Shown here one piece after another: positions 1 to 13,347 of a stretch of DNA of 64,000 nt (positions are counted from its first letter, which is position 1; each line of letters starts with the position of its first letter). The DNA comes from a bacterium (GTDB lineage: Bacteria > Patescibacteriota > Minisyncoccia > Phycocordibacterales > Phycocordibacteraceae), in the NCBI GenBank assembly GCA_021849125.1, contig JAJZTG010000001.1, forward strand, positions 96,422 to 160,421. The letters are read 5' to 3'. Under the pieces are notes generated by a model. It saw nothing but the letters and a program-made list of their open reading frames with translations, did no database searches and was not told the DNA's origin. The position numbers and the translations under genes were made by a program.

Positions 1-1
1 C

Positions 2-1330
2 GTTCAGAACGGAGTGTGCGAAAACGACGCCGATGACTTGCTTGACGTGTGGCTCATTCGTGGCGACTTTCTTCTCACGCTTTTCGACAGCCATACCTTT
101 ACACACATCGTCGGTAATCCGCCTTACATTCGACAGGAGATGGTGCCGAATGCGCTCATGGCGGAATACCGCCGTCGATTTGAGACGATCTATGACCGCG
201 CAGACATCTATGTGCCGTTTATCGAGTACTCACTCAAGCTGCTCGACGAAGGAGGAGCGCTCGGTTTCATCTGCGCCGATCGCTGGATGAAAAACCGCTA
301 TGGAGGTCCGCTCCGCGATCTCGTGGCGAGAGAGTACCACCTACGTACCTACGTCGATATGATCAATACGGACGCCTTCCACTCGGAGGTGATCGCGTAC
401 CCGGCCATTACGGTGATTGCTCGCGAACCATCCGGTCCGACGCGCATCGCCAAACAGCCGAAAATAGACGTAAAGACTCTCGCACAATTGTCACGAGCGC
501 TCACGCAGGACGAACTGCATGACAAAATTCTCGAGACGACTGTATCTGCTGGCGGGCCATGGACGCTCGACGAGTCGGATGCGCTTACGCTGATACGCCG
601 TCTCGAATCGGAACTCCCCGCACTCGAAGATGCGGGCTGCCGGGTGGGTATTGGTGTCGCTACTGGTGCGGACAGTGTCTTTATTGCACCGTTCGACACA
701 CTCAACGTCGAGTCGGACCGAAAACTTCCACTCGCCATGACCAAAGATATCCAAAGTGGAGAGATAGAGTGGAGGGGTCTCGGCGTGATAAATCCTTTCG
801 ATGAAAGCGGCAAGCTCGTGTCGCTCTCAGACTATCCGAAGTTGCGCGATTATCTCGAGCTTCACAGCGATACAATCAGAAAACGTCATGTATCAAAGAA
901 GAATCCGAATGGTTGGTACAGGACCATCGACCGCATTTATCCAGAGCTCGTTGCAAGACCAAAGCTCCTTATTCCGGACATCAAAGGTGATGCTCATATA
1001 GTGTATGAAGAGGGTCGGTTCTACCCACACCACAATCTTTATCACATTACCTCGGAGAGTTGGGACCTCCGTGCACTCAAATCTGTGCTTTCCTCAGGTA
1101 TCGCACGTCTTTTCATCGAAGCGTACTCAACACGTATGCACGGCAACTGTCTTCGTTTCCAGGCACAGTATCTGCGACGCATCCGCATCCCCCGATGGAC
1201 TGACGTGCCGAAGGACCTTCGACACCAATTGCGTGACGCGGCTGAAAAGAATGATACGGCCTCGCGCGAAGACGCTGTCTCTCGGCTCTACTCCCTAAGC
1301 ACCAAAGAGCGTGATATCATCAGGTCGTAA
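2..1330 (+). CDS. N6-adenine DNA methyltransferase, gamma-class (TaqI/Eco57I-like), 5'-truncated by window edge
   Basis: The frame is open from base 2, and the listed ORF begins at a GTG. It carries the motif IV NPPY ([11 protein letters not shown]) preceded by a GDFLL motif, followed by a long C-terminal region consistent with a target-recognition domain. Its stop codon overlaps the start of the next gene (TAATG). Confidence 0.8.
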
Positions 1331-2067
1331 TGGCCCTGAATTTAGCGAAATACGAAGAGCGTGCAAAGCGTGCAGTTAAGCTCTTTTGGGGCAATCGTGC
1401 GGCCGCTGCGCGCCAGCAGAAAGCAAACGGGGTTGTCGATCAAGGTACACGCGGAGCAGTCACGGCAGGCAAAAACATGGACGGCTTTGCCGAACTAATG
1501 GCCCAGGTGGTAAGAGCCAACGGACTTGAGCATGCGACCATAATTCACGGTGGACGTCTCGTTACTCTGCCTGGCTATTTCCGTCCTACTAAGCAATGGG
1601 ATTTCCTCGTAATCAATGAGGGACGGCTCGTTGCGGCGATTGAGTTCAAGTCGCAAGTAGGGTCTTTCGGCAACAATTTCAATAATCGCACTGAAGAAGC
1701 TATTGGTACGGCCCATGATTTATGGACGGCGTACCGTGAAGGCGCATTCGGAGAACATCCAAAGCCGTTTGTCGGATGGCTAATGCTTCTTGAGGATGCC
1801 GCCGGTTCTCGGCGCCCAGTTAACGATAATTCGCCGCACTTCCCTCTGGCTAATGACTTTGAAAATTCCTCTTATGCCGATCGATATAACGTGCTGTGTA
1901 AAAAGCTTGTGCAAGAAGGACTTTACACGTCAGCTTCAATTATGCTCTCGCCGAAATCTGCCAAACGGACAGGAGAGTATTCAAATCTGAGCGACCTAAC
2001 GAGCATAGACACTTTCGTCGCCACACTAGCAAGTCACATCGCAGGCGAAGCTGCGCGATCAAAGTGA
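1330..2067 (+). CDS. putative type II restriction endonuclease, partner of the upstream methyltransferase; possibly XhoI/PaeR7I-like
   Basis: This 245-aa ORF is translationally coupled to the methyltransferase through the TAATG overlap. Its size and the M-then-R gene order match the PaeR7I/XhoI systems as I remember them. The family assignment is inferred from context, not from recognised catalytic motifs. Confidence 0.5.
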
Positions 2068-2177
2068 AGCTGGGATTGTTCTGCACCCCTCCTTCTGAGC
2101 ATACGGCTCTTGACGACTTCGCGTCAGGTGGTAGCAACTCTCGTCCAAAGCATCCACAGATTGGACCACTAGACATC

Positions 2178-2756
2178 CTATTGGGTGATCTTGGTTGGTT
2201 TCAAAAACCGCTCAGCAATGTATTCAAGGTAATTGCGAACAAGATAGAAATCCTGCATTGGGTTAAGTTCAAGTTTTGTCGCATCGCCTGCATCCGACCA
2301 GATCACAATATCAATTTCACCGTTGAGACTTAGTGCCTGAGGTTCACATGCATTTGAGGGCCTGTCGTGTTTGAAGGTTGGATGTTTTACAATGTCGTTT
2401 GCAATGTCAACGACCCGCTTAATGTTTTCAGCGTAATAAGCGTCCACTGCTTTGGCGTCGCTCAGCATCTTGCGTAAGATACTTAACGCCTCAAGCATAG
2501 TACGCAACAATGCATACATAGCGAATGCGTATGACCATGATTTGCGCATGTAATACATCACCTCGCTGTTAGTCGGGTTTTCTTTTTTAAAAAACTCGGT
2601 GTAGCTGTCGCTAAGCGACATCATCTGGTGATACGCGTAGAGGTAGTACGAAAGTGCCACATCGGCCGTATGTTTTGATTTTTGGTCTGGGAATTTGTAT
2701 CCAGCGTAAAACTCTAGAAATTGCGGGACGCTATATTTTTGGACGAGATCTTCCAT
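2178..2756 (-). CDS. hypothetical protein; second gene of the AT-rich two-gene operon
   Basis: 192-aa ORF tightly coupled to 2759..3265, with low GC and no motif I can recognise. It is divergently oriented to the KAP NTPase, with 77 bp between the two start codons. Confidence 0.5.
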   Translation of the reverse strand: MEDLVQKYSVPQFLEFYAGYKFPDQKSKHTADVALSYYLYAYHQMMSLSDSYTEFFKKENPTNSEVMYYMRKSWSYAFAMYALLRTMLEALSILRKMLSDAKAVDAYYAENIKRVVDIANDIVKHPTFKHDRPSNACEPQALSLNGEIDIVIWSDAGDATKLELNPMQDFYLVRNYLEYIAERFLKPTKITQ

Positions 2757-2758
2757 AT

Positions 2759-3265
2759 CTATCGCACCCCAATCACTTTCCTAAATTCGTTTGCCACGTG
2801 TTCTCGTTTTGGAGGAAAATCGTTTTTGTATCTCGTCACCAATTCACTCCATTTCTTTGTATCGGGACGCTCGCCGTCCAATCGTGCCTCGTACGCAAAC
2901 TCGTGGAACATAGTTTTATATTCCTCGGCGAGCTTGGCCATATCATCAGACAAACTTTTGGAGAGATAATGCCGGTTCCGTAGATAGTGGCCAATAAAAT
3001 AGTTGAAGGCCTCACTTGCTTTTACACGCCGTCGCATTTCCGCCTCTTTTGAGGCATCATCCTGGATCGGCGAAACAAGTTCACCCACGATCCGATCCAA
3101 ACGCTCCATTCTTTTCATCATTTCGTCGAGTACTTCAGCACGTTTTGCGTACAATCCAGATTCTTTGATTGATCGAACTTGCGTACGATAGTTCATCAAG
3201 CCATTTATTAGAGCGGCAGCTGCGCCAGACCCGAGCACAGATATTGAGAATGTGACCCAGTCCAT
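2759..3265 (-). CDS. hypothetical membrane-anchored protein; first gene of an AT-rich two-gene operon
   Basis: 168 aa with an N-terminal hydrophobic helix (WVTFSISVLGSGAAAALINGLM) followed by a charged, helical soluble part. GC is visibly lower than in the neighbouring genes. It lies 2 nt upstream of the next minus-strand ORF. Confidence 0.5.
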   Translation of the reverse strand: MDWVTFSISVLGSGAAAALINGLMNYRTQVRSIKESGLYAKRAEVLDEMMKRMERLDRIVGELVSPIQDDASKEAEMRRRVKASEAFNYFIGHYLRNRHYLSKSLSDDMAKLAEEYKTMFHEFAYEARLDGERPDTKKWSELVTRYKNDFPPKREHVANEFRKVIGVR

Positions 3266-3342
3266 GGGTGATATTTTACCTCATTCTAAAGCGACTCCCC
3301 CACGGGCTGTCATTCAAGTGAACAAAGGTCTAAAATACAGTT

Positions 3343-6300
3343 GTGGAATCACCACTGCACATCCAGAAGTATCATGCCCGCCTCAAGGAAGTGTTTACTG
3401 ATTTGAGAGTGATTACTGCGAATCTTTCGGTGCTAATCAAAGCGGTTTTTCTTGGCATTCTGGTCGCTGAGATTTGGCGTCTCTCGCTCGTTGCCGCAGG
3501 AAAGGCTAATGGATGGATATTTTCAAACAACTATGAGTCCTGGGCTATTGGCATTTGCATAGCGGGAATCGCGATACTAGTCTCGTATCTTATAGCAAGA
3601 GACGTTCCTGCAGATTTCAAGAAGATTGTCGCGAGCGGCCGTATAGACGTATTTATTGCGATAAGTCTTGGTGCGTGGCTGAGCGTCGCGTGGAGCGGCT
3701 TCTTTTCAGATTGGTATACGGCTTTTGTGGCGTCGTCGAGCATTCCCCAGCTACTGACGATAATCTCCGGGCCGTTCATTCTGGCCGTTCTTATTGTGGC
3801 GAGATCTGTCGTTCGGAGGGAGAAGAAGGTTGACTCATCCTTTATAGTTGATCTCGAGCTAAACGACAAAGAGAAAGACTTGCTTGGTTTTGGCGATAAG
3901 GCGAGCAATTTCGCAGAGCGTGTCTTCAACGGCGGTTCGCCAGACAGCTTCGTATTCGGTGTCGATGCTCCATGGGGGATCGGTAAGTCGACCTTCATAA
4001 ACTTTTGCCAACAGTACTGGAGGGAGAAACATGGACACGAGATTGTAGTCTACAAATTCAGCCCGCTCCAGCACTCCGGAACAAACGACCTGCTCGACGT
4101 GTTTATTGATGGGCTCATTCAGGCAATCCAAAAGGATTCTTTTGTACCCGAGATTAAACCGCTCATCTCAAGCTACTCTCGCCTACTGAAAGAGGTCAGT
4201 CGATTTTCAATATTCGGCCTTGCTTTGCCCAGTTTCTCTACCAACTACACCGCCAAGGATGCATGCGATGATCTGACTGTTGTCCTTCGAAATTTCCATA
4301 AGAAAATAATAATCGTCGTCGACGATTTAGATCGAATCAGTTTCGATGAAATGAAGAGTATTCTCTTCGTGATCAGGAAAAGCTTCATGTTTCCGAACAT
4401 CTCATATGTCATCTGTTATGACACCGACAACATCAGCGCTCTCGAAGCAGAGACCCAGGACACGGAAAAAATAAGCGAGTTCCTAGAGAAATTCGTCAAT
4501 ATAAAAATCAGCCTCTATCTTGATCGGAAGGACTTGGTTAAGTACATCTCAGAAAATATCAGTGAGGCTCTTTCTGCGAGCACAGTGGATCCTATCTTGG
4601 TAGGACAAGCAATCGGAGGATTGAAGGATATATATAACTCGTCGATCTATCACAAGTACCTTCCATTCATCGGTGACGTCAGGAAGCTCAAGCGTCTCAT
4701 CAATACAGTGACGTTGTTCGAGCTCCAAACAACTGATTTCAAGAACACGGATTTCGACAAACGTGACTTGATCAACCTGTTGCTTATCTATATCCATTAT
4801 CCCAATGTCTTTCGAAAAATATACGACACCGAAACCGATGGAGGACGCGGATTCTTCTCTCTGGTAATTCCACACGAGGATGGATATCCAGACGAAGAGC
4901 CGGGTGCCCCTCGAAGAAACTCCCTTAGCGATTCGGAGTATAAAAATTCAAAATACTATCACGAGTATCTCAAAGAGCTCCCTGAAGGCGGTAGGCAACG
5001 CTTCCTATTGGACCAAGTGTTCAATGTAGACGTTAGATTGAAAGGCACTGGCGATAATCATTTCGCTACCCGAGACAGGTACGCTCAGATCGACAATGTA
5101 CCCGAGGACGTGCGGACATCTCTGGCCTGTTTCAATGGGGGCTGGACGAATGGCAGGAATCTAGAGACTTATCTTGACCTGATTGTTAAGCTCGCGAAAC
5201 CCGAAGAGAGTGGGCAGCATCGCTTCTACACTCGCTGGAAGGACGAGATCATTTCCGGCTCGAAAACCCTTAAAGAGGTATTTACTGACGCCAGATTTGC
5301 ATATGATAAGAGTGAAGCGCCGCGCGAGAAGCTTTGGAGAATCTTCGTCAATAATGCTAGAGACCTTAAAAAGGCGACGGCCGCATCCGTGATTTCGCAT
5401 CTGATTGAAAGTATGCCCGATTACTCGTTGCTTGAGATAAAGGAGATTGGTCTGGGTCTACGCCATAGCTTGGATTACTTTCTAACCCGTCTACTGAACG
5501 ACGCGGGCTGGACTGATCCGGCCGGTAAGCATTCCAATAACACGGAGAAACACATAAAAGAGATCGCCGAATGGGTGTTTGGTGAGAGCGCGCATTCAGA
5601 CAAAAGCATTCTCGACAGACTCTCTGCGCCCGAGCGTGGTGTATTAGGCCTATACGATTTGATGGTATTTCGACTTTCGTGCAGCGCGGATCGTGGAGGC
5701 GATATCTTTGATCTTACTCGGGCGGTCGCTCAGCACGCCAACCCCAACGCGCCCATTCAAGGCGATACACGCGACATTGCTCGTGAGGAAATGCGAGAGA
5801 TGTCTCAGAAAGTCTTCCAGATATTTAAGACACAGTACATTGATCCTAAAATAAATATCTTTGATAAAGTTGCAGCGCTGCAGATTTCTGATTTCGCCGG
5901 GAAGTACGCTACTTATCTGGCACAGAAAGTCACCGACGGAATTGTCCAACAATCTGACATAGACAAGAAAGTTGTTGAAATGAAGACTCGCATCACGAGC
6001 TTCATTCTCTACCAACTTGGGAATAACGAGATCAGTCATGGGGTTGGGTGCGGGTATTACGATCCATCTGGAACGAAGGATGGGCACGGAATCAGGAAGC
6101 TCATGAATGAATATCTCTTTGGGCTATGCTTTGACCCGTCGAAACCAGAGAACGCACAGTATTTGGTGGACTATCTGTTTAGGAATTTCGCTAATGCAAT
6201 CGCATCAGCGCGCGAGGATGGTCGAAAATACATACCGAGCATCAACGAGTTTACGAAAGTCCTCGACAAGGTTGGTCTCGCTGGCTATTGGCAGAACCAC

Positions 6301-6465
6301 GGGGCAACTATCAAGGCCCTGAAACTAGAGGATCTTGAAAAGATCGTCTTTGTCGGGAATGACGAAGCTTCGTATCGGGAATATGTGCCCTTGGTTTTTA
6401 AGGTGCTAGATGACAATCTGGCTGAGGTGCAAGCGGCGGCGGCAAAGGTTCTTGCGGCACAGTAA
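3343..6465 (+). CDS. KAP-family P-loop NTPase with four N-terminal transmembrane helices and a ~500-aa C-terminal extension
   Basis: Walker A FGVDAPWGIGKSTFIN and the KAP-type Walker B IIIVVDDLDRISF. Four hydrophobic segments fall in the first ~165 aa. The C-terminus is alpha-helical and ends in an alanine-rich stretch that looks HEAT-like. Confidence 0.8.
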   Translation: MESPLHIQKYHARLKEVFTDLRVITANLSVLIKAVFLGILVAEIWRLSLVAAGKANGWIFSNNYESWAIGICIAGIAILVSYLIARDVPADFKKIVASGRIDVFIAISLGAWLSVAWSGFFSDWYTAFVASSSIPQLLTIISGPFILAVLIVARSVVRREKKVDSSFIVDLELNDKEKDLLGFGDKASNFAERVFNGGSPDSFVFGVDAPWGIGKSTFINFCQQYWREKHGHEIVVYKFSPLQHSGTNDLLDVFIDGLIQAIQKDSFVPEIKPLISSYSRLLKEVSRFSIFGLALPSFSTNYTAKDACDDLTVVLRNFHKKIIIVVDDLDRISFDEMKSILFVIRKSFMFPNISYVICYDTDNISALEAETQDTEKISEFLEKFVNIKISLYLDRKDLVKYISENISEALSASTVDPILVGQAIGGLKDIYNSSIYHKYLPFIGDVRKLKRLINTVTLFELQTTDFKNTDFDKRDLINLLLIYIHYPNVFRKIYDTETDGGRGFFSLVIPHEDGYPDEEPGAPRRNSLSDSEYKNSKYYHEYLKELPEGGRQRFLLDQVFNVDVRLKGTGDNHFATRDRYAQIDNVPEDVRTSLACFNGGWTNGRNLETYLDLIVKLAKPEESGQHRFYTRWKDEIISGSKTLKEVFTDARFAYDKSEAPREKLWRIFVNNARDLKKATAASVISHLIESMPDYSLLEIKEIGLGLRHSLDYFLTRLLNDAGWTDPAGKHSNNTEKHIKEIAEWVFGESAHSDKSILDRLSAPERGVLGLYDLMVFRLSCSADRGGDIFDLTRAVAQHANPNAPIQGDTRDIAREEMREMSQKVFQIFKTQYIDPKINIFDKVAALQISDFAGKYATYLAQKVTDGIVQQSDIDKKVVEMKTRITSFILYQLGNNEISHGVGCGYYDPSGTKDGHGIRKLMNEYLFGLCFDPSKPENAQYLVDYLFRNFANAIASAREDGRKYIPSINEFTKVLDKVGLAGYWQNHGATIKALKLEDLEKIVFVGNDEASYREYVPLVFKVLDDNLAEVQAAAAKVLAAQ

Positions 6466-6477
6466 AGAGATTTCCCA

Positions 6478-6500
6478 AGTCATAAGAAATTTACTGCACT
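6478..6500. repeat. perfect 10-bp inverted repeat (tttactgcac tag gtgcagtaaa) just after the KAP gene stop
   Basis: Read directly from the sequence. There is no downstream T-run, so it is either a terminator-like hairpin or a protein-binding or recombination site. Confidence 0.4.
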
Positions 6501-6664
6501 AGGTGCAGTAAACTCTCTCTATGCATAAAACTCACGGTCGAAAAGCTAGCAAATAAGCCATTGCGCAAAAGTTTTAGGGCAAAATCATAATTCCGTCGTA
6601 CACGTATCGTACTTTTGCCAAGATTGTGGAATACATTTGCTCGCTTCTGTGCGATTGTCTATAC

Positions 6665-7297
6665 ATGAGCGCAAAAGATAAACGAGAGCTGGATCGGATG
6701 CTTCGAGGTGTTGGCAGAGCCATGGATCAGGCGAGAATCGACGGTCCGTTTATTAAGGCAGAAGAGAACAAGGCACTCGGTATTGCGTATACGATCAAGG
6801 ATGTGTATGTCGGAGAGGTCGCCATCAGACGTAGTGCGAACGCATGGTGGATGAATGATCAAAAAGTCGCCTTGATCATAGAGGCCATGAAAGAGGGCCA
6901 TACTGTCAACACGGCGTGTCTGTATGCTGAAATCTCCCGTGCTCAATGGGAGTACTTCAATAAAATCCATCCAGAATTTGAGGCGGTCATCGAGATGTGC
7001 GAGCAATATCAGCTCGTACGTGCTATGGACACGGTGAACCGCAACCTTAACGATCCCAAGATGGCCAGGTGGCTTCTTGAGCGACGGCACCCTAAATTCA
7101 AAACACGGCTCACGCTCGACGACGTCCTCGGTCGACAGATCCCGAGTTTGATTACGAATCTCGCGTTTCAGGACGAAAACGAAACCCCAGAGGCGATTGC
7201 AGCAAAGCTTACACAACTCGCAGAAACGATTCTTTCGGAAAACGAGGCGCGCAAGCGTGGGCTTGTAGTGCCGAATTCAAAAGCACTTTCCGATTAG
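6665..7297 (+). CDS. phage terminase small subunit-like HTH protein (Terminase_2-like)
   Basis: The C-terminal region contains MARWLLERRHPKFKTR, which resembles the W-L-L-E-R-R motif of phage TerS (P27-family) proteins as I remember it. No large terminase is nearby. The start is placed at the internal ATG at 6665. Confidence 0.45.
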   Translation: MSAKDKRELDRMLRGVGRAMDQARIDGPFIKAEENKALGIAYTIKDVYVGEVAIRRSANAWWMNDQKVALIIEAMKEGHTVNTACLYAEISRAQWEYFNKIHPEFEAVIEMCEQYQLVRAMDTVNRNLNDPKMARWLLERRHPKFKTRLTLDDVLGRQIPSLITNLAFQDENETPEAIAAKLTQLAETILSENEARKRGLVVPNSKALSD

Positions 7298-7309
7298 AAG
7301 TAACTTTTC

Positions 7310-7870
7310 TTACTTAACTACCACCCATTCGCTCGCGGACCAGCCAGCTTCCCCGACCTTGTCTGAGTCGGCTTCGGCCGCCCCCTTGGTGACGCGCACT
7401 TTCGTCAGAGTCATGCTTGTGTCGATGACCCTTACCTCCGAGCCGTTATGGACACAGAACAGCCCTTCTTTGGTCAGGTCTAGAATGCCCAGGTAGTCCT
7501 TGGCAAGAAGCGCCTTTGTGTATTCGTCGTACACGGCCTTCGTAGGCGCGAGGCAAAGCGCTTGGGTTGGGTCATCATTGCCTGGAAGTCGAAGATACGC
7601 ATCTTGCCCGAGCGTCCGCGCTTCGCTTGGTCCAGCGTTTCTTTGTGTCGTAGCTGTAGCGTTCTCGGTGGCGCTGTTGATGGAACTGAGTACTGCTCCG
7701 AACAAGAAGAGGCCGACAAAGAGGCTGAAAACAGGATGGCGATGTGGCCAGCTTCGCAAATCAGATTGGCAATAAGGGCACTTCTTTGCAGCGGAGGGAA
7801 TATCCTTACTGCAATGTGGGCACGATTTTGTCTCTGCAGAGTTCTGAGTCATGGGAATTATGCGATCCAA
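7310..7870 (-). CDS. membrane protein with an N-terminal zinc ribbon (CPHC...CPYC) and a single TM helix
   Basis: Two CxxC pairs near the N-terminus, then the hydrophobic stretch VFSLFVGLFLFGAVL, then a soluble C-terminal domain. Confidence 0.5.
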   Translation of the reverse strand: MDRIIPMTQNSAETKSCPHCSKDIPSAAKKCPYCQSDLRSWPHRHPVFSLFVGLFLFGAVLSSINSATENATATTQRNAGPSEARTLGQDAYLRLPGNDDPTQALCLAPTKAVYDEYTKALLAKDYLGILDLTKEGLFCVHNGSEVRVIDTSMTLTKVRVTKGAAEADSDKVGEAGWSASEWVVVK

Positions 7871-7883
7871 TAATTCCCGTGCA

Positions 7884-8078
7884 GGACGCAGAAACCCGCC
7901 ACGGGCAATGAGGTTTCCCCCAAGGGCGGATCACGCCGAACCCCGTGACGGGTTTCTGCGCGTGATCCGACTTGAAGACCATGCCGCGGCCGGAGCCTTC
8001 GGTTTAGGTCCCGCCCCTCACGGGGCGCATATTCGTGTGTAGCACATGTTCATGATAGCCCAGAGCGGCTATCATCGG
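7884..8078 (+). ncRNA. structured RNA / regulatory leader with mutually exclusive hairpins
   Basis: Bases 7887-7905 are complementary to 7942-7960 (19 bp, one mismatch). Bases 7927-7936 are complementary to 7960-7969 (10 bp), and that second 3' arm abuts the 3' arm of the first hairpin. Further GC hairpins follow (cgcccctcacggggcg and tgatagcc..ggctatca). All of this sits upstream of the gene starting at 8129. Confidence 0.35.
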
Positions 8079-8128
8079 AACCCCTATCACTGACTTGCAG
8101 AAAAGCCAAGGAGGCATAGCATTTTGGT

Positions 8129-8899
8129 ATGAACGCTCACGAGGCTAGCACCTCGGTTTTTACAAGTGACCGTGATGTCATTGCGGAGATTGAGCGCATT
8201 TTGCCGCAGCCACTGGTCGATTCTCTGAAGGAGCGCATTTTACAGGACAGGGTGTACGATCCTGCCCATGCCGAAGCGTTCAGTCTCCTAAAGGAGGCAT
8301 TTCGTAAGATTGGTTTTCGAGTAAATAGAAAAACACTCGCCACAAAGCTAAGAGATTTTCAACGCGCCCTCGAGAGATTCGACGACGAGCTCATTTCAAA
8401 CTTTGCGTACGAACCACACCAAAAGCTATATGCTGTCCATCCAAGTCGTCGAAATGGCGTGGCTTTAATGCGTGAGCTTCGGCAGTCTTACGATCTGTTT
8501 GCAAAAACATACCGTCTTCTACTGAGCGAGGCTACAACTGCGTTCCATTCGTCAGTTGTGGAAGAGTCCGTCGAGCTCCAGAATCTCACAATCAGATTCT
8601 CGAATGAAGAGGGTGCAATCTATGTTGGTGAGAGTCGTTGCCAACTCCCGCCGTTCAAAAATGGCCACTATCTTTGCAGAGTCATGTTTACTAAACCGCC
8701 CAAAGTGCCAGTCGACTGGTCAGACGTGGCCAACGAAATGTTCGGCAAGGATCCCATAAGACGGGCAGAACGTCTTCGGTTAGAAAGAAAAGTTAGAGAT
8801 GCAATGTATGCAGTAAATCGAATCGTTGGGAAATTGAATACCCCCGATAAGTTATTTACCTGGAAAGACAAGACAATTATTCGAAACTATGGCCGATAA
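8129..8899 (+). CDS. hypothetical protein
   Basis: 256-aa ORF inside the low-GC mobile region with no motif I can recognise. Confidence 0.5.
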   Translation: MNAHEASTSVFTSDRDVIAEIERILPQPLVDSLKERILQDRVYDPAHAEAFSLLKEAFRKIGFRVNRKTLATKLRDFQRALERFDDELISNFAYEPHQKLYAVHPSRRNGVALMRELRQSYDLFAKTYRLLLSEATTAFHSSVVEESVELQNLTIRFSNEEGAIYVGESRCQLPPFKNGHYLCRVMFTKPPKVPVDWSDVANEMFGKDPIRRAERLRLERKVRDAMYAVNRIVGKLNTPDKLFTWKDKTIIRNYGR

Positions 8900-9049
8900 C
8901 TCTCAGGTGATTCACCTCTGAATTCTTTAGGCTGTCGCCAGCTCGTTTCTTTTTGAAGGAGTCATGAACGCTCCTGGTAAAACCCTCTGCTTTCTTGGCA
9001 GGTGCTCTTAGAGCGTTCATCCCTGTCAAGAAAGGAGCGGGCTTTACTC

Positions 9050-9229
9050 ATGGCAAGCCAGCAACTAGCACAGAAATTCAAAGATGCGATTGCAGAAGAT
9101 TTCGACAAAGAAGTCTCTCTCGACGACGCTAGCCGGATGCTCTCAGATCTGGTTGGTTATTTTGACCTGCTTGCGAAGTTGCGGCACCAAATAACGGATC
9201 AAAATCATGGATCAAAGAAATCAAATTGA
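9050..9229 (+). CDS. small hypothetical protein
   Basis: Internal ATG within ORF 9002..9229 (MASQQLAQKF...), lying in the mobile-element context. Confidence 0.3.
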   Translation: MASQQLAQKFKDAIAEDFDKEVSLDDASRMLSDLVGYFDLLAKLRHQITDQNHGSKKSN

Positions 9230-9964
9230 GGCAGTATTGAGGCTACATCTTAACGAAAGAGTTATCGCATTCCACCCAATATACGCAAAAATCTTGGGAG
9301 GAATTGAGGAGGCCATATTCTTTCAGCAGATTTGTTTTTGGAGCGATAAAGGTAAACGTGATGATGGTGCTATATACAAAACGTCTAAGGATATCGAGGA
9401 GGAGACAACGCTTAGCGATCGGGTACAGCGCCGCGTGAAGAAAAAATTCAGGAGCTCGGACTGCTTGAGATTTGGCTTGAGAAGGTCGGAGGCGGTCCTG
9501 TATGCCACTACCGCGTGCACTGGGATGTCCTGCGAAAATGCCTAAAGGATTTCTACCAACTGTCGGAATCCTCTATATATTCAGAAACTACTCCAAGAAA
9601 AAAGAATGCGGTTTCTTCAAAGCAAGAAACCGCAACCACCTCCTCCCGGGGGAAATTCAATGCCACGAACGTAAGGATGACCAGATATAAAAATCCTGCC
9701 GTGCAAGAAATCGTTGAGACGTTCGTGAGACAGTGCGAGAAAAATATGGGCATTGCCCCAGTAATCGGTGCAGACGACTTCCGCATGGCTTCTTATGCTC
9801 TCAACCGCGGAGGGCTTTCAAAGGAAATGGTGTTTGAGATGATTGATGATTGGTTCGCGCAGCCGACAAAGGATGGCGACATATTGCATCTCACCAGAGC
9901 CATCTCAAAGAGCAGAATCAATACCTATCGAGGAGAGAACGTTAACAGGTTCAAGAGATCTTAA
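9207..9964 (+). pseudogene. winged-HTH (replication-initiator-like?) gene split by a -1 frameshift at an A6 tract; pseudogene, homopolymer error or recoding
   Basis: ORF 9207..9545 reads ...LSDRVQRRVKKK across aag aaa aaa at 9438-9446. The -1 frame continues without a stop from 9416 as IQELGLLEIWLEKVGGGPVCHYRVHWDVL..., and runs into ORF 9515..9964. One extra A would fuse the two into a protein of roughly 250 aa. Confidence 0.4.
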
Positions 9965-10161
9965 TTAACTTTATGGAAACAAAAAACGAAAAAGGACGGG
10001 TGCTATCAGCAAGTGAACGACTGCGAGAAGACTTGGAGTATGCAATCGGCAGATTCGTCGAAAAACTAAAGAGAGAGATTGGAGTTCGTTAAGACTTGCA
10101 TTCCCGTCCCACGAAGGTACTATCCCGACCCCCGGGGATTACGGGACATAAAAACGGACCT

Positions 10162-11733
10162 ATGGAAAAAGCCATCATCTACACACGCGTTTCGTCGAAA
10201 GAGCAGGAAGAAACCGGCTACTCGCTCGATGCGCAGGAGCAGTTCCTAAAGGAATACGCTCAAAAGCTTGGGCTCCCGGTTGCCAAAATCTACAAGGTCA
10301 CCGAGTCCGCGAGTAAATGGCAACTGCGCAAGACGCTCGACGCCATGCTCGAATACGCTGTTGAGCACGATGTGAAAGTTATCCTTGGTGAGAAGATCGA
10401 TCGACTGACCCGCAGTCTCAAGGACGCCGCAATCATCGATGACTGGGTGCACGACGAGGACGGGCGTCAGGTGCACTTCGTCAAAGAACACTTCATCGTC
10501 AGCAAGGAAACGCGTGCGCACGATAACTTCGTGTGGGACATGAAGGTCGCTGTGGCGCGCTTCTACACAAACAATCTCTCGGAGGAAGTTAAGAAGGGTC
10601 AGAAGCAGAAGATTGCCGAGGGATGGTTGCCGACCAAGCCACCACTCGGTTACAAGACCGTCGGCGAAAAAGGAAAGAAGATCCACATGATCGATGACGA
10701 CAAGGCTCCGTTCGTGCGACGTATGTTCGAGATGTATTCGAGCGGTAACTACTCTGTCATCTCTCTTGCGGATGCAATGTATCGCGACGGGCTTCGGAAT
10801 CGCGCCAACAAGAAGGTTGGCAAGAGCCGCATGTACGACATGCTGCGCGATCCGTTCTACTACGGCGCGATGCAATGGAAGGGTCAGGTGTTTGCAGCCA
10901 AGCACGAGCCACTCATTTCCAAAGAACTCTTCGACCGCGTACAGGCGCTCTTAGCGCGACCGTTCAATCAACTCCAAATGCAGAAACACCTACCGGTGTT
11001 CAAGGCGAAGATGCGCTGTGGCGCGTGCGGCGGCTCGGTAACGTGGGAGACGCACAAGGGCTACTGGTACGGCCACTGCAACGGTTACAAGCGCAAGGAC
11101 ATGAAGGCAAAATGCGAAAGCCGCCACATCTTCCTGCGTCAGGACAGGATCGAGGAACTCATGTTCCCGTTGTTCGAAAAAGCTACACCCAAAGGCGCAC
11201 ATGTGATCGAAGTGCTGAAGGAGGCATTGAAGGAAAGCCACGCGGAAGAAGTCGACCGATTCGATGCGCAGCTCACAAGTCTCAACCTGACGATCGACCG
11301 ATCTCAACGACGACTCGAAACGATCTACGAGGACAAGCTAGATGGCAAGATTTCGGCGGAAATGTATGAAAGCTTGGCCAAGCGCTATTCCAGCGAGAAA
11401 GAGGCTGCTACGGGCGAAATTTCGCGCCTGAACCGGGGTAACAAGCGCTACTACGAGGCTGGGTATGCCATTCACGAGCTCGCTCTCCAGGCAGCGGCCA
11501 TTTACAGCGACGAAAAGACGACGAACGAGGATCGTCGGATGCTCCTGAGCTATGTTTTTTCGAACATCGAGCTAAACGGCGAAGAACCTAAGTTTTTCTA
11601 CACGCCAGCGTTCGATTTCGTGGTGAATTGGGTACCCAAGCTAAATTTGATTTTAGAACTCGAAAATAGCTTGGAAACTAAAAGACGAAATGGCGCTTTC
11701 GCGCCATCTCATCCTGTTCTGCTCCGCGGGTAG
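10162..11733 (+). CDS. large serine recombinase (integrase)
   Basis: N-terminal resolvase catalytic domain with IIYTRVSSKEQ (catalytic Ser). A recombinase domain follows, then a zinc ribbon CGACGG...HCNGYKRK and a coiled-coil C-terminus. The stop codon at 11731-11733 overlaps the tRNA 3' end. Confidence 0.9.
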   Translation: MEKAIIYTRVSSKEQEETGYSLDAQEQFLKEYAQKLGLPVAKIYKVTESASKWQLRKTLDAMLEYAVEHDVKVILGEKIDRLTRSLKDAAIIDDWVHDEDGRQVHFVKEHFIVSKETRAHDNFVWDMKVAVARFYTNNLSEEVKKGQKQKIAEGWLPTKPPLGYKTVGEKGKKIHMIDDDKAPFVRRMFEMYSSGNYSVISLADAMYRDGLRNRANKKVGKSRMYDMLRDPFYYGAMQWKGQVFAAKHEPLISKELFDRVQALLARPFNQLQMQKHLPVFKAKMRCGACGGSVTWETHKGYWYGHCNGYKRKDMKAKCESRHIFLRQDRIEELMFPLFEKATPKGAHVIEVLKEALKESHAEEVDRFDAQLTSLNLTIDRSQRRLETIYEDKLDGKISAEMYESLAKRYSSEKEAATGEISRLNRGNKRYYEAGYAIHELALQAAAIYSDEKTTNEDRRMLLSYVFSNIELNGEEPKFFYTPAFDFVVNWVPKLNLILELENSLETKRRNGAFAPSHPVLLRG

Positions 11734-11759
11734 GATTCGAACCTACGACCAACTCGTTA

Positions 11760-12363
11760 CACGTTCTCTCTTGTTACCAAGAGCGTGGACTATATCATCA
11801 CCCGTATCTGCGTCATGCAGATCGAGGGTGCGAGGCGCTTCCCCAGCCCCAGTTTTGGACTCAAAACTCGTTTGAATTCAAAACTGGAGCTGGGTACTCC
11901 CTTGCGGGATAGTCTCTAGACCTTCTCATCTTCCGATGAGCTTGGCTCGGGATTGCCCACAGCATTTCCTCTGTTAGGGGTTCCCCGAATTCACCTCGTG
12001 TTCGACCTAAATCTCTTTAGGAAGCTGCGTAATGCCTGCGTGCAATTCGCGGTGACAGTTCGCACAAACAAGAACGCATTTATCGATTTCTTCTTTGATC
12101 TTTTCCCAAGATCTCGTGAGACCTTTCGTCGAGAGACCGAAGTCTTTCTGGCTCGGATCTTTGTGATGAAAATCGAGTGCTCCTGAATAACGACTGTATC
12201 CGCACATAACGCACTTCCCGCCCTTGTATTCGCGCGCCATTTCTCGAAGCTTCTTTCGACGCTCCGAAACGGCTTTACGCAAGTACTCGGCACGGTCGGC
12301 ATAAGTCCTTTTCTCTTTTGGCATACTCATTTAAGTATACCACTCGGGTTTTGGACTTGAACC
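11760..12363 (-). mobile_element. group I self-splicing intron carrying an HNH homing endonuclease ORF
   Basis: R element AGAGACUA (plus-strand 11910-11919), S element GAUAUAGUCC (11788-11797), and a P9 hairpin CUCUUG-GUAA-CAAGAG just before the 3' splice site. The 5' exon ends in U and the intron ends in G. The HNH ORF lies in the same orientation, about 35 nt inside the intron. Confidence 0.65.
12007..12330 (-). CDS. HNH homing endonuclease (intron-encoded)
   Basis: 107 aa with CVMCGY ... DFHHKD ... LVCANCHRELH, the classic HNH Cys/His arrangement. Confidence 0.8.
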   Translation of the reverse strand: MSMPKEKRTYADRAEYLRKAVSERRKKLREMAREYKGGKCVMCGYSRYSGALDFHHKDPSQKDFGLSTKGLTRSWEKIKEEIDKCVLVCANCHRELHAGITQLPKEI

Positions 12364-12387
12364 ACAGCGAGCCGCTCTACCACTGAG

Positions 12388-12543
12388 CTACCGCGGAATG
12401 TATTTTCCTTCCGCGGCAGCTCAGGTCTGAGCTACCACCGAAGGGGCCGAGCGAAATATGAAAGTATTCTTTGCATATTTCCGAGGCCCCGAACGGGAGC
12501 AAGCAGTTGCGAAGCAATCTGCTTACCGCGGAATGTATTTTGT
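12388..12543. repeat. 18-bp direct repeat (taccgcggaatgtatttt) at 12388-12406 and 12526-12543, bracketing a GC-rich hairpin cluster
   Basis: The first copy covers the tRNA 5' end plus its immediate upstream sequence. The segment between the copies contains a long near-perfect hairpin (12447-12495). Confidence 0.5.
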
Positions 12544-12877
12544 TTTCAATACTTCTGCCCCGAAGGGCAGGTATTCGCATTCTAACCGAAAATCAGGATG
12601 CCGCAACGGTATGAAAACAGCCGCCCGGATGGGCGGCTGGCGATGAGGTGCTGTTTTAGCTCGATAGCGGCAGGTCTAGAAAATACGATGCCGATACCAT
12701 GAACAGCCCGGGGAATTGCTCAACTACTTCCGGTGGAAGTTTTTGAAGCTCCTCCCAGACCGAGGCCTGGGTAACTCCTCCTGCAGATGCTTCGCAAGCT
12801 TGTGTGATTTCGTTTTTCTCAACAGACATTGCAAACCTTTCTTCAATCAGTTAAAGAACATTCTCAAATGCAAAACC

Positions 12878-12936: not shown

Positions 12937-13347
12937 TCAGGCCTTCTGATGCTTCGCACAACGACAACCGAAAGGCTTGATGTGCTCGTCGAAATATTCT
13001 TCCCCGTAATCGTAGGTAAGCTCTTCGCCCGGCTTGATGCCCTTGATCGCATCGATCCAGACGCGGCCCTTTACGATATTCGGTTCGCAGTTGGGCTTGC
13101 AAGAATGATTGATGTAGCGAGCAAAGTTGTCGCGCTGGGTGCCGTCGATCGTCTTCCGGCTGTTTACCTCGAAGAGGTACTTGCTCTTGCTCGTGTATTC
13201 CTCTTCCTTGGAAATCTCGCGGCCGAAGTACTCGATGATCCGCTCCCCTTTCTTGAATGCGCGCGTCGCGAAAAGACCCAAACCTGCGCTTGAGCGCCCC
13301 ACGCGAAGCCCCTCCGGACACACCGGTTTCTTTTTCGTATCTGCCAT
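12937..13347 (-). CDS. SET-domain protein (putative protein-lysine methyltransferase)
   Basis: RYINHSCKPNC and GEELTYDYG motifs, plus a C-terminal Cys cluster (post-SET-like). Confidence 0.8.
   Translation of the reverse strand: MADTKKKPVCPEGLRVGRSSAGLGLFATRAFKKGERIIEYFGREISKEEEYTSKSKYLFEVNSRKTIDGTQRDNFARYINHSCKPNCEPNIVKGRVWIDAIKGIKPGEELTYDYGEEYFDEHIKPFGCRCAKHQKA

What the first reader, a model, noticed from the sequence alone, without database searches (positions are those of the whole stretch)
11722..12397. tRNA split by a group I intron with an HNH homing endonuclease, with an integrase abutting its 3' end
The two tRNA halves lie 604 nt apart on the minus strand and together make a canonical cloverleaf. 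The acceptor stem UCCGCGG/CCGCGGA pairs over 7 bp, the anticodon stem GCUCG/CGAGU over 5 bp, and the D-arm and T-arm are standard. The intervening RNA carries the group I R (AGAGACUA) and S (GAUAUAGUCC) elements, a GNRA-capped P9 hairpin at the 3' splice site, and a same-strand HNH ORF. Identity elements U1-A72, G73 and loop CUGUUAA point to tRNA-Asn(GUU), with the intron after position 35. Group I introns in bacterial tRNAs are known mainly for Leu, fMet, Ile and Arg genes, so an Asn(GUU) insertion would be unusual. The same tRNA is also the attachment point of the serine-recombinase element.
Basis: partly seen in the sequence, partly recalled or inferred. Interest (0 to 1): 0.75.

Follow-up and report, generated by a model that had tools for sequence, protein, structure and literature searches.

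The report
Intron-split tRNA-Asn beside a serine integrase
This is a real asparagine tRNA gene of a candidate-phyla-radiation (Patescibacteria) bacterium, interrupted in its anticodon loop by a self-splicing group I intron that carries an HNH homing endonuclease; a 2026 paper already described this arrangement for the phylum, so it is a correct but ordinary find, with a mobile-element integrase parked at the tRNA's 3' end.

Summary
On the minus strand, exons 12397-12364 and 11759-11722 flank a 604-nt intron. Rfam scores it as a group I intron (62.6 bits, E 1.7e-13). The intron carries a Pfam-positive HNH ORF.

Four tests favour tRNA-Asn(GUU) spliced after U35 (35/36) over Thr(UGU) at 33/34:
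- Relatives ending AUG allow only 35/36.
- An invariant guide sequence GCAG puts the G-U wobble on U35.
- U1-A72 and G73 are invariant, and the spliced tRNA matches an intron-less tRNA-Asn at 66/73.
- In vitro splicing at 35/36 is published for such Patescibacteria tRNA-Asn introns.

The HNH ORF sits in the P1 loop. Its last codons are the guide sequence and P2.

Nakagawa et al. 2026 (PMC13011429) already describe this kind, including HNH-bearing cases and the ARAGORN Thr miscall. This locus is therefore a new member of a known kind.

A large serine recombinase gene does end 12 nt inside the tRNA 3' end. The same arrangement recurs in 17 of 80 related loci, which supports the tRNA as an integration site. 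The crossover point and the element's far end were not found.

The parts
12364..12397 (-). tRNA-Asn 5' exon: acceptor 5' strand, D arm, anticodon stem 5' strand, and loop C32 U33 G34 U35
   Evidence: Read directly. Cloverleaf after in-silico splicing. Acceptor-stem covariation across the intron in 53 relatives.
11760..12363 (-). Group I intron, 604 nt, IA-like, ending in G at 11760
   Evidence: Rfam RF00028 at 62.6 bits, E 1.7e-13. In a 51-sequence core alignment, 29 of 44 predicted pairs show compensatory changes. P3 covaries.
11722..11759 (-). tRNA-Asn 3' exon: U36 A37 A38, anticodon stem 3' strand, variable loop, T arm, acceptor 3' strand, G73. CCA is not encoded (next bases are CAG).
12364..12368 (-). 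P1 5' strand: exon G31 C32 U33 G34 U35, with the 5' splice site after U35
   Evidence: Complementary to the guide sequence GCAGC with U35-G wobble. A compact P1 is seen in the ORF-less relative L017.
12024..12033 (-). Internal guide region AUUAC-GCAGC. GCAG (12028-12025) pairs with exon CUGU in P1. UUA (12032-12030) can pair with 3' exon UAA in P10. The region lies inside the last codons of the HNH ORF.
   Evidence: GCAG[CU][CU]U[CU]N present at this position in 51 of 53 relatives. Alignment columns 9-13 are invariant.
12007..12330 (-). HNH homing-endonuclease ORF in the P1 loop. It is 107 aa from ATG 12330; the probable true start is ATG 12324 (105 aa), as in most homologues.
   Evidence: Pfam HNH. 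PHROG HNH endonuclease families down to E 7.5e-32. More than 3,400 homologues, named ones all Patescibacteria. 65 of 80 related loci have it inside a split tRNA.
12320..12341 (-). Conserved hairpin GGUAUACU-UAAAUG-AGUAUGCC that holds the HNH start codon in its 3' strand. The likely role, limiting translation of the endonuclease, is inferred.
   Evidence: Present in most relatives with covarying third and seventh pairs (U-G, C-G or U-A; C-G or A-U), read.
12006..12021 (-). P2 hairpin CCUAAA-GAGA-UUUAGG; the HNH stop codon UAG (12009-12007) lies in its 3' strand
   Evidence: Each of four pairs changed on both sides in 15-25 of 51 sequences.
11992..11998 (-). P3 5' strand CGAGGUG; it pairs with 11837-11831
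   Evidence: Pair counts show CG/UA and GC/AU covariation.
11925..11991 (-). P4-P5-P6 domain
   Evidence: Rfam alignment. P4 switches GGGG/CCCG to CUGG/CAGC, and P5 and P6 covary.
11910..11917 (-). R element AGAGACUA, containing the P7 5' strand
   Evidence: Invariant in 51 sequences.
11842..11909 (-). Two hairpins between the P7 5' strand and the P3 3' strand (P7.1 at 11909-11898, long P7.2 at 11894-11842). This insertion is typical of subgroup IA.
   Evidence: 24-nt inverted repeat I2. The P7.1 hairpin is conserved in the alignment. Subgroup IA is reported for this intron class.
11831..11837 (-). P3 3' strand CGCCUCG
11799..11830 (-). P8 hairpin
   Evidence: covarying stem.
11787..11796 (-). 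S element GAUAUAGUCC, containing the P7 3' strand
   Evidence: Invariant.
11768..11783 (-). P9 hairpin CUCUUG-GUAA-CAAGAG, followed by GAACGUG ending in the terminal G
11680..11707 (-). Terminator-like hairpin AUGGCGC-GAAA-GCGCCAU plus U run after the tRNA. On the other strand it encodes part of the recombinase tail.
   Evidence: Read. The same hairpin type at the same spacing occurs in other recombinase-bearing loci.
10096..11733 (+). Large serine recombinase gene, convergent with the tRNA. The first in-frame start codon after the upstream stop is TTG 10096; the probable start is ATG 10162 (523 aa, as called on L082). The stop codon is 11731-11733, so the last 12 nt overlap the tRNA 3' end.
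   Evidence: Resolvase, Recombinase and Zn_ribbon_recom domains. CcrB- and XisF-like, below their cut-offs. Same arrangement in relatives.
1..11733 (.). Low-GC island (44-55% against 55-63% beyond 13000) ending at the tRNA. It holds an Eco57I-like methylase and XhoI nuclease, a KAP NTPase, a small-terminase-like ORF, a replication-initiator-like ORF, a LOOT RNA hit and the recombinase. It continues about 0.4-1.2 kb beyond the window start.

Best explanation
The locus is the tRNA-Asn(GUU) gene of a Patescibacteria (Paceibacteria/Minisyncoccia-like) bacterium. A mobile IA-type group I intron interrupts it between anticodon positions 35 and 36.

The proposed mechanism has five steps.

1. The gene is transcribed as one precursor.
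2. The guide sequence GCAG, about 335 nt into the intron, pairs with exon C32-U35 to form P1, with a U35-G wobble.
3. An exogenous guanosine attacks after U35.
4. The terminal G (11760) then docks and the exons are joined, giving the anticodon loop CUGUUAA. CCA must be added enzymatically because it is not encoded.
5. The HNH ORF occupies the P1 loop and reads through the guide sequence into P2, where its stop codon lies. Its product is inferred to cut intron-less tRNA-Asn genes so that repair copies the intron in (homing). A conserved hairpin over its start codon probably keeps its expression low.

Separately, a mobile island of at least 12 kb carrying a large serine recombinase has inserted at or next to the tRNA 3' end. 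The recombinase gene reads into the tRNA, so the attachment junction lies in or just beyond the tRNA 3' part.

Shown here: the anatomy, the covariation, the family distribution and the recurrence of the arrangement. Shown by others for homologues: self-splicing at 35/36. Inferred: splicing of this copy, endonuclease activity and target, and the recombinase crossover point.
For: Group I intron:
- Rfam hit above the gathering score over the full model.
- P2, P3, P4, P5, P6, P8 and P9 covary in 51 related cores, and P7 is invariant.

Functional tRNA:
- 54 relatives all give Asn(GUU) after splicing at 35/36.
- In the 53 scored, acceptor stems are perfect with compensating changes, and U1, A72 and G73 are invariant.

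Splice site at 35/36:
- 26 of 54 related introns end AUG, so a 33/34 site would leave A rather than G as the last intron base.
- The guide GCAG is invariant and places the wobble on U35, while U33 would face an A.
- The ORF-less relative L017 shows a compact P1, GGCUGU-9 nt-GCAGCU.
- The spliced sequence is 66/73 identical to the intron-less tRNA-Asn(GUU) of L015.

HNH:
- Pfam and PHROG hits.
- CxxC...HH...CxxCH residues are intact (read).
- The family is tied to tRNA-Asn genes in 80 of 80 loci examined, either inside the intron or free-standing beside the gene.

Host phylum:
- The flanking formyltransferase is 70-77% identical to Minisyncoccia, Paceibacterota and Kaiserbacteria proteins.

Recombinase and island:
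- Domains, GC drop and cargo.
- 17 of 80 related loci have a recombinase gene just downstream, always convergent. In at least eight more of them its stop lies 10-14 nt (45 nt in L004) inside the tRNA, although the proteins are only 21-45% identical.
- IMG/VR relatives abut other tRNA genes in the same way.
- Nine recombinase-less relatives carry a direct repeat of the tRNA 3' end starting at T-loop G57/A58.
Against: - No transcript or splicing data exist for this copy.
- P1 is short (4-5 bp) and invariant, so it has no covariation support of its own. Its sequence is also constrained by the overlapping codons.
- The P10 part (UUA) varies among relatives.
- Endonuclease activity and target are untested, and NCBIfam has no model for the protein.
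- For the island, no second copy of the tRNA 3' end exists in the window or at the GC boundary upstream of it. No empty site was recovered. The island may also be composite.
- Whether this is the only tRNA-Asn gene of the genome could not be checked.
Confidence: 0.88

Rival explanations
1. It is a tRNA-Thr(UGU) gene with the intron after U33 (33/34), as ARAGORN reports.
For: ARAGORN -i calls Thr(UGU) i(33,604). The alternative also has U before and G after the intron and folds into the same cloverleaf.
Against: - In 26 of 54 homologous introns the 33/34 reading would end the intron in A.
- The invariant guide GCAG pairs U33 with A, not in a G-U wobble.
- U1-A72 and G73 match tRNA-Asn; bacterial tRNA-Thr usually starts with G1 and has A73 or U73 (established knowledge).
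- The spliced sequence is 66/73 identical to an intron-less tRNA-Asn(GUU).
- The same miscall is documented, and sequenced splicing products of such tRNA-Asn introns show 35/36.
Confidence: 0.03
2. The two halves are remnants of a dead tRNA gene, and the HNH gene and ribozyme-like sequence between them are unrelated or no longer functional.
For: No expression data exist. Partial copies of tRNA ends do occur around this gene and its relatives.
Against: - The full group I core is intact, with all conserved elements.
- Exons have no mismatches in any stem.
- The arrangement is kept in 65 of 80 related species-level genomes with compensatory changes in the acceptor stem and the intron helices, which implies selection for function.
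- The HNH ORF is intact and 64-91% identical to its relatives in the 80 related genome loci.
Confidence: 0.04
3. The recombinase gene merely lies next to the tRNA. The island entered elsewhere or by another route, and the tRNA is not its attachment site.
For: - No att repeat or tRNA remnant was found at the island's other end.
- Serine integrases usually target sites inside protein genes (general knowledge; mycobacteriophage literature listed).
- The island carries defence genes that may have arrived separately.
Against: - Recombinases only 21-45% identical, in hosts of different Patescibacteria classes, keep the same convergent orientation. In most loci where the ORF end could be read they also keep the same reading register into the tRNA (tails ending LLRG-stop).
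- Ten contigs break within 0-326 nt (nine within 140 nt) after the tRNA 3' end, and none begins within 400 nt before its 5' end.
- T-loop-anchored direct repeats occur in other relatives.
Confidence: 0.25

Closest known systems
Group I introns at position 35/36 of tRNA-Asn(GUU) in Patescibacteria (Nakagawa, Amikura, Omae, Suzuki, mSystems 2026; PMC13011429)
   Same: Same phylum, same tRNA, same insertion site, same HNH (PF01844) endonuclease family in the long versions, same failure or miscall by annotation tools, and the IA-type extra hairpins.
   Different: This genome is a draft MAG outside the paper's set of 95 complete genomes. The paper found only four HNH-bearing cases and inferred limited mobility. 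Here the HNH family has more than 3,400 clustered relatives and at least 410 species-level genomes. The paper does not mention integrases.
Classical bacterial tRNA group I introns: tRNA-Leu(UAA) 34/35, tRNA-fMet 33/34 (with a PD-(D/E)XK endonuclease in Synechocystis), tRNA-Arg(CCU) and tRNA-Ile(CAU) 36/37
   Same: A self-splicing intron in the anticodon loop, P1 built from loop nucleotides, and occasional intron-encoded homing endonuclease (and established knowledge).
   Different: Those are mostly subgroup IC, sit at other loop positions, and carry other endonuclease families.
Phage T4-type IA introns with homing endonuclease ORFs (td, nrdB, sunY)
   Same: IA architecture with P7.1/P7.2, an ORF looped out of a peripheral element, and a start codon held in a hairpin. 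This comparison is from established knowledge and was not tested here.
   Different: Those interrupt protein-coding genes and place their ORFs in other loops (for example P6). Here the ORF is in the P1 loop and its 3' end is the guide sequence and P2.
Large serine recombinases / integrases (phiC31, Bxb1, A118 Int, CcrB, XisF)
   Same: Resolvase catalytic domain, Recombinase domain and zinc ribbon. The best NCBIfam resemblance is to CcrB and XisF, below their cut-offs.
   Different: Known members mostly use sites in protein-coding genes. Here, and in 17 of 80 relatives, the gene converges on and overlaps a tRNA 3' end.

Membership tests
Group I intron (Rfam RF00028) | Match to the covariance model at or above the curated gathering score | tested here: met
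   62.6 bits against 50, E 1.7e-13, model positions 1-253 of 253.
Group I intron (Rfam RF00028) | Conserved core helices P3-P9 supported by compensatory changes | tested here: met
   29 of 44 RNAalifold pairs have both-side changes in 51 sequences. P3 and P9 were counted separately. P7 is invariant, so it is uninformative.
Group I intron (Rfam RF00028) | [quoted passage not shown] | tested here: met
   U35 pairs with the G of the invariant GCAG. The last intron base is G at 11760. The pairing is read from sequence and has no covariation, because both strands are invariant.
Group I intron (Rfam RF00028) | Guanosine-dependent self-splicing | not testable with these tools
Subgroup IA | Extra hairpins P7.1/P7.2 between P7 and the P3 3' strand | tested here: met
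   Two hairpins at 11909-11898 and 11894-11842.
Subgroup IA | Assignment by subgroup-specific covariance models | not tested
   Those models are not available here. The paper assigns 25 of 28 introns at 35/36 to IA.
tRNA-Asn(GUU) | Canonical cloverleaf with anticodon GUU after exon joining | tested here: met
   ARAGORN on the spliced sequence gives tRNA-Asn(gtt). The same holds for 54 relatives.
tRNA-Asn(GUU) | Similarity to intron-less tRNA-Asn genes, with G73 and U1-A72 | tested here: met
   66/73, 59/72 and 60/72 identical to the intron-less tRNA-Asn of L015, L040 and L045. U1, A72 and G73 are invariant in 53 loci.
tRNA-Asn(GUU) | Charging with asparagine (or aspartate followed by amidation) | not testable with these tools
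   No biochemical data.
Patescibacteria 35/36 tRNA intron class (PMC13011429) | Host belongs to Patescibacteria | tested here: met
   The flanking formyltransferase is 70-77% identical to Minisyncoccia, Paceibacterota and Kaiserbacteria proteins. Named HNH relatives are Patescibacteria.
Patescibacteria 35/36 tRNA intron class (PMC13011429) | Intron between anticodon positions 35 and 36 | tested here: met
   Three sequence tests done here, plus published product sequencing for such introns.
HNH homing endonuclease | HNH (beta-beta-alpha-metal) motif with catalytic His and zinc-binding Cys pairs | tested here: met
   Pfam PF01844 at 23.2 bits against 21.4. PHROG HNH families down to E 7.5e-32. 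Motif CVMCG...DFHHKD...VCANCHRELH read.
HNH homing endonuclease | Encoded within a self-splicing intron, or adjacent to its target gene | tested here: met
   It lies in the P1 loop here. 65 of 80 relatives are inside a split tRNA, and others are free-standing beside tRNA-Asn genes.
HNH homing endonuclease | Cleaves or nicks the intron-less allele at or near the insertion site | not testable with these tools
   No assay. The closest solved structures are only weak matches (E 0.016 and above).
Large serine recombinase (integrase) | N-terminal resolvase catalytic domain, Recombinase domain and zinc ribbon | tested here: met
   86.5, 66.1 and 29.7 bits, all above their cut-offs. The serine-containing motif YTRVSSKEQ was read.
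Large serine recombinase (integrase) | Defined attL and attR flanking the element, or attB and attP | tested here: inconclusive
   One junction is fixed by the overlap with the tRNA, and this recurs in relatives. No second site was found. The viral scan with this protein alone found nothing.

The most novel reading that the evidence does not exclude
In Patescibacteria the tRNA-Asn gene may be a double hotspot.

Besides the homing intron, a clade of large serine recombinases appears to integrate at tRNA genes. This is unusual, because tRNA targeting is the hallmark of tyrosine integrases. The evidence so far is as follows.

- The recombinase reading frame runs through a conserved terminator hairpin into the tRNA acceptor strand, giving tails that end LLRG-stop.
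- Relatives in viral contigs abut tRNA-Gln, Pro, Ser and Trp genes.
- About 160-180-nt fold-back insertions sit behind tRNA-Asn in other species. Each holds a terminator, an inverted copy of the T arm and acceptor, a spacer, and a direct repeat starting at T-loop G57/A58.

Those insertions could be miniature non-autonomous elements or scars of the same recombination system. The mirror-image 135-nt module in front of this window's tRNA (12407-12541) could be a 5' counterpart.
Probability: 0.3. Interest if true: 0.55.

Novelty: new member of a known kind. Interest (0 to 1): 0.3.

Why it matters
For the main feature the value is practical rather than conceptual.

- Standard tRNA finders miss or misname this gene, so the MAG would be scored as lacking tRNA-Asn or as having an extra tRNA-Thr. 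The published remedy applies here.
- The HNH-bearing form of the intron looks far more common than the four cases in complete genomes suggested. There are at least 410 species-level genomes, and free-standing copies sit beside intron-less and ORF-less alleles. This bears on the published inference that tRNA introns of this phylum are rarely mobile.
- The recurrent serine recombinase reading into the tRNA 3' end, if confirmed as site-specific integration, would add tRNA targeting to the repertoire of large serine integrases. It would also give a defined landing site in organisms that have almost no genetic tools.

Tried and rejected
- Default ARAGORN on the window found no tRNA. Intron mode was needed.
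- A permissive Rfam search of 11500-12800 gave only the intron plus chance microRNA-model hits on hairpins.
- A search for a second copy of the tRNA 3' end found none. I tried the window with a 22-mer and up to 3 mismatches, then the 8.7 kb upstream of the window by blastn-short, Smith-Waterman and permissive sliding alignment. A by-eye resemblance at the GC boundary (L082 about 8150-8190) scored 9.5. That is below unrelated places (12.5), so I rejected it.
- Exact look-ups of the SET-domain and HNH proteins for strain variants with an empty site returned only the same arrangement, or contigs that break inside the recombinase gene or the intron.
- A viral-contig scan with the recombinase alone found nothing. 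With an alignment it found relatives of about 30% identity next to other tRNAs. Repeat searches in three of those loci gave no att repeats.
- PDB sequence search for the HNH protein gave only marginal hits. NCBIfam has no model for it.
- An HMM of the 3' fold-back modules of relatives does not match the window, so the window's 5' module is not detectably homologous to them. A shared 8-mer, AACTGCTT, is judged coincidental because it is a stem strand here and a loop there.
- An intron 5' segment (CGAGU) that could pair with the anticodon-stem 5' strand is not conserved in relatives, so I dropped it as a structural element.
- Literature searches for serine recombinases at tRNA genes in this phylum found nothing specific.


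Full report
**What is in the sequence.** On the minus strand the window reads TCCGCGGTAGCTCAGTGGTAGAGCGGCTCGCTGT (12397-12364), then 604 nt, then TAACGAGTTGGTCGTAGGTTCGAATCCTACCCGCGGAG (11759-11722). ARAGORN in default mode finds no tRNA anywhere in the 64 kb. With introns allowed it reports one gene at these coordinates with a 604-nt intron. Both possible exon joins fold into a flawless cloverleaf. Rfam's group I intron model matches 12054-11767 on the minus strand over its whole length, at 62.6 bits against a gathering score of 50 and E 1.7e-13. The ORF 12330-12007 on the same strand passes Pfam's HNH threshold and matches several phage HNH endonuclease families.

**Host.** The window is identical to an ENA contig and to a contig of assembly GCA_027321305.1. 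The formyltransferase gene just outside the window is 70-77% identical to proteins named Minisyncoccia, Paceibacterota, Pacebacteria or Kaiserbacteria. The HNH protein has more than 3,400 clustered relatives, and the named ones are Patescibacteria. The host is a member of the candidate phyla radiation.

**The two halves are one working gene.** A scan of one genome per species found at least 410 genomes encoding a relative of the HNH protein, and I kept the best 80 loci. In 65 of them ARAGORN finds the ORF inside a split tRNA. For 54 I could normalise the exon boundaries, and all give tRNA-Asn(GUU) when joined after U35. In 52 of the 53 scored (L016's three mismatches stem from a 5' boundary set one base too far upstream) the acceptor stem, whose strands lie 516-640 nt apart, is perfectly paired. 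It takes many different sequences, for example UCCGCGG/CCGCGGA, UCGGGCG/CGCCCGA, UCCGUGG/CCACGGA and UCCCCGG/CCGGGGA. U1, A72 and G73 never change. This is the pattern of a gene under selection, not of a pseudogene fragment beside an unrelated ORF.

**The intron core.** I aligned 51 cores, running from the guide sequence to the tRNA end. RNAalifold recovers P2, P4, P5, P6, P7, a hairpin after P7, P8 and the T arm, and 29 of its 44 pairs show changes on both sides. P3, which RNAalifold cannot draw because it is knotted with P7, covaries when counted directly (CG to UA and GC to AU). P9 covaries too. Two hairpins lie between the P7 5' strand and the P3 3' strand (11909-11898 and 11894-11842). 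These are the P7.1/P7.2 insertion typical of subgroup IA, the subgroup reported for this intron class.

**Asn at 35/36 or Thr at 33/34?** The ambiguity arises because GU follows the exon's CU and GU also precedes the terminal G. Four tests point the same way.

- Of 54 related introns, 26 end in AUG. There the 33/34 reading would make the last intron base an A, which a group I intron does not use.
- The sequence GCAG (12028-12025) is at the same place in 51 of 53 relatives. It pairs with exon C32 U33 G34 U35 so that U35 faces G, the obligatory wobble, and U33 faces A. In the window G31 adds a fifth pair. The three bases UUA just upstream can pair with the first three bases of the 3' exon (P10), although that part varies among relatives.
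- An ORF-less relative (L017) has the same guide only nine bases after the splice site, GGCUGU|AAGUUAGUUGCAGCU. This is a textbook P1 hairpin.
- The spliced sequence is 66/73 identical to an intron-less tRNA-Asn(GUU) found beside a free-standing copy of the same HNH gene in L015.

**Where the ORF sits.** Comparison with L017 shows that the HNH ORF fills the loop of P1.

- Its last eight codons (I T Q L P K E I) are the guide sequence and the 5' strand and loop of P2. Its stop codon UAG (12009-12007) lies in the 3' strand of P2.
- Free-standing copies end differently. This fits an endonuclease gene that invaded the P1 loop and now reads into ribozyme sequence.
- Most relatives start at the second ATG (12324).
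- That start codon lies in the 3' strand of a conserved hairpin, GGUAUACU...AGUAUGCC (12341-12320). Its third and seventh pairs covary among relatives. I infer that it restrains translation, as known for other intron-encoded endonucleases. This was not tested.

**Comparison with what is known.** Nakagawa et al. (mSystems 2026, PMC13011429; preprint July 2025) analysed 95 complete Patescibacteria genomes. They report the following:

- 15 tRNA-Asn(GUU) genes with group I introns at 35/36;
- ARAGORN and tFind often call these Thr(UGU) at 33/34;
- precise self-splicing in vitro, and loss of ligation when the terminal G is mutated;
- assignment of these introns to subgroup IA;
- four tRNA-Asn introns that carry HNH (PF01844) genes.

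The window's locus meets every feature of that class that I could test, so it is a further member.

One point goes beyond the paper. It inferred limited mobility because few tRNA introns carry endonuclease genes, and it noted that draft genomes might change this. Here the HNH-bearing form is abundant. The same HNH family also occurs free-standing beside intron-less tRNA-Asn genes (L015, L040, L045) and beside tRNA-Asn genes with ORF-less introns (L017, L021, L048, L061, L068, L069).

**The recombinase and the island.** ORF 10096/10162-11733 on the plus strand has the three domains of a large serine recombinase. It resembles CcrB and XisF below their family cut-offs. It converges on the tRNA, and its last 12 nt, including the stop codon, are the complement of the T-stem and acceptor 3' strand.

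Everything from the window start to this gene has lower GC than the rest (44-55% against 55-63% beyond 13000). The cargo is:

- an Eco57I-like methylase with an XhoI nuclease, and a KAP NTPase;
- ORFs resembling a small terminase subunit and a replication initiator;
- a LOOT RNA hit.

The ENA contig shows that the low-GC stretch begins about 0.4-1.2 kb before the window. Beyond it come ordinary genes: diacylglycerol kinase, PAP2, a PolX-like gene, a phosphoribosyltransferase, S30AE and formyltransferase.

**Is the tRNA the attachment site?** The comparative evidence is in favour.

- In 17 of the 80 related loci a large serine recombinase gene lies directly downstream of the tRNA, always convergent.
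- Where the ORF end could be read, the stop codon falls 10-14 nt inside the tRNA in eight further loci (45 nt in L004). This holds even though the proteins are only 21-45% identical to the window's and the hosts span several Patescibacteria classes. The tails align as E-[LP]-x13-[AS]F-x5-P-x-LLRG-stop, the last residues being dictated by the tRNA complement.
- Ten contigs end within 0-326 nt (nine within 140 nt) after the tRNA 3' end. None begins within 400 nt before its 5' end.
- Relatives of the recombinase in viral contigs (about 30% identity) abut convergent tRNA-Gln, Pro, Ser and Trp genes.
- Nine loci without a recombinase carry a 160-180-nt insertion behind the tRNA that ends in a direct repeat of the tRNA 3' end. 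The repeat starts at G57/A58 of the T loop and usually runs to an encoded CCA, followed by a second terminator. That is what a displaced original 3' end looks like after site-specific insertion in the T loop.

Against this, I found no second att site, tRNA remnant or empty site in this genome. The island may also be composite. I rate the attachment-site reading at about 0.7. The exact crossover is unknown.

**Other things seen.**

- Just upstream of the tRNA (12541-12407, minus strand) an exact 18-nt direct repeat (nine leader bases plus tRNA bases 1-9) flanks 117 nt. This segment contains a degenerate direct copy and an inverted copy of the tRNA 5' end.
- The segment folds into a three-way junction closed by a stem identical to the tRNA acceptor stem (-66.6 kcal/mol, z = -7.2). 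No Rfam family matches it.
- Three relatives have other partial upstream copies of the 5' exon.
- The arrangement mirrors the 3' insertions of other species, but an HMM of those does not match it. I leave it unexplained.

**Verdict.** The finding is correct and its interpretation is sound. The main feature is a new member of a kind described in 2025-2026, so its interest is modest. The recombinase-tRNA association and the small fold-back insertions are the parts that may be new and worth a follow-up.

Noticed in passing
window 12407-12541 (minus strand): An exact 18-nt direct repeat AAAATACATTCCGCGGTA (leader plus tRNA bases 1-9) lies at 12541-12524 and 12406-12389. It flanks 117 nt that hold a degenerate direct copy (TTCGGTGGTAGCTCAG) and an inverted copy (CTGAGCTGCCGCGGAA) of the tRNA 5' end. 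The segment folds as a three-way junction closed by an acceptor-like stem (MFE -66.6, z -7.2). There is no Rfam match. The inverted copy could also pair with the real tRNA 5' end over 16 bp.
   Followed up: partly
L003, L022, L073 (upstream of their tRNA-Asn genes): Other species also carry partial upstream copies of the 5' exon, 68-149 nt before the real gene. L022 has a 26-nt exact repeat. L003 has a copy interrupted in the D loop by about 70 nt. The closest relative, L002, has none.
   Followed up: partly
L005, L007, L009, L016, L024, L028, L037, L049, L054 (downstream of tRNA-Asn); weaker HMM hits in L003, L055, L061, L069: These loci carry 160-180-nt (103 nt in L054) fold-back insertions behind the tRNA. 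Each holds a terminator, an inverted copy of the acceptor and T-arm 3' strands split by a covarying hairpin (loop AACUGCUU in four of the five loci that have it), a spacer, and then a direct repeat of the tRNA 3' end from T-loop G57/A58 to GGAGCCA with a second terminator. One weaker hit lies near a tRNA-Ala gene.
   Followed up: partly
L015, L040, L045, L017, L021, L048, L061, L068, L069: The same HNH family occurs free-standing next to intron-less tRNA-Asn genes or next to tRNA-Asn genes whose intron lacks an ORF. Their C-termini differ from the intron-borne form. L040 also has a degenerate 5' exon copy upstream of the HNH gene.
   Followed up: partly
L090, L091, L100, L101, L109, L111, L112, L114, L118, L127, L146 (IMG/VR contigs): Recombinases 24-31% identical (best aligned segment) to the window's lie with a convergent tRNA gene (Gln, Pro, Ser, Trp) downstream, directly abutting in several (18 nt from the aligned end in L090/L091) and up to 2.6 kb away in others. 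This suggests a tRNA-associated clade of large serine recombinases.
   Followed up: partly
window 7895-8010 (minus strand): Rfam LOOT RNA hit just above its gathering score (48.9 against 46.4 bits). It lies inside the low-GC island, immediately upstream of the zinc-ribbon ORF 7870-7310.
   Followed up: no
window 14-6465: Defence-type cargo in the island: an Eco57I-like methylase (cut by the window start) with an XhoI-family nuclease, two small ORFs without matches, and a 1040-aa KAP-family P-loop NTPase.
   Followed up: partly
window 6626-7297 and 9207-9545: ORFs with PHROG matches to a small terminase subunit (E 9e-11) and to replication initiator O-like / DnaD-like proteins (E 1e-17). These suggest a phage-satellite-like or plasmid-like origin for part of the island.
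   Followed up: no
window 11860 and about 11180: Public assemblies break here. One ENA contig ends at 11860, inside the long P7.2 palindrome of the intron. The GCA_027321305.1 contig ends inside the recombinase gene. The NCBI annotation calls only a 77-aa fragment of the HNH ORF and no tRNA.
   Followed up: partly
window 11719-11722: The tRNA gene does not encode CCA (G73 is followed by CAG). Many relatives, and the displaced 3' end copies, encode GCCA.
   Followed up: no
window 12937-13347 (minus strand): A 136-aa SET-domain protein gene lies directly upstream of the tRNA, followed by a cupin gene and an uncharacterised 220-aa ORF. SET next to tRNA-Asn recurs in L002 and L052.
   Followed up: no
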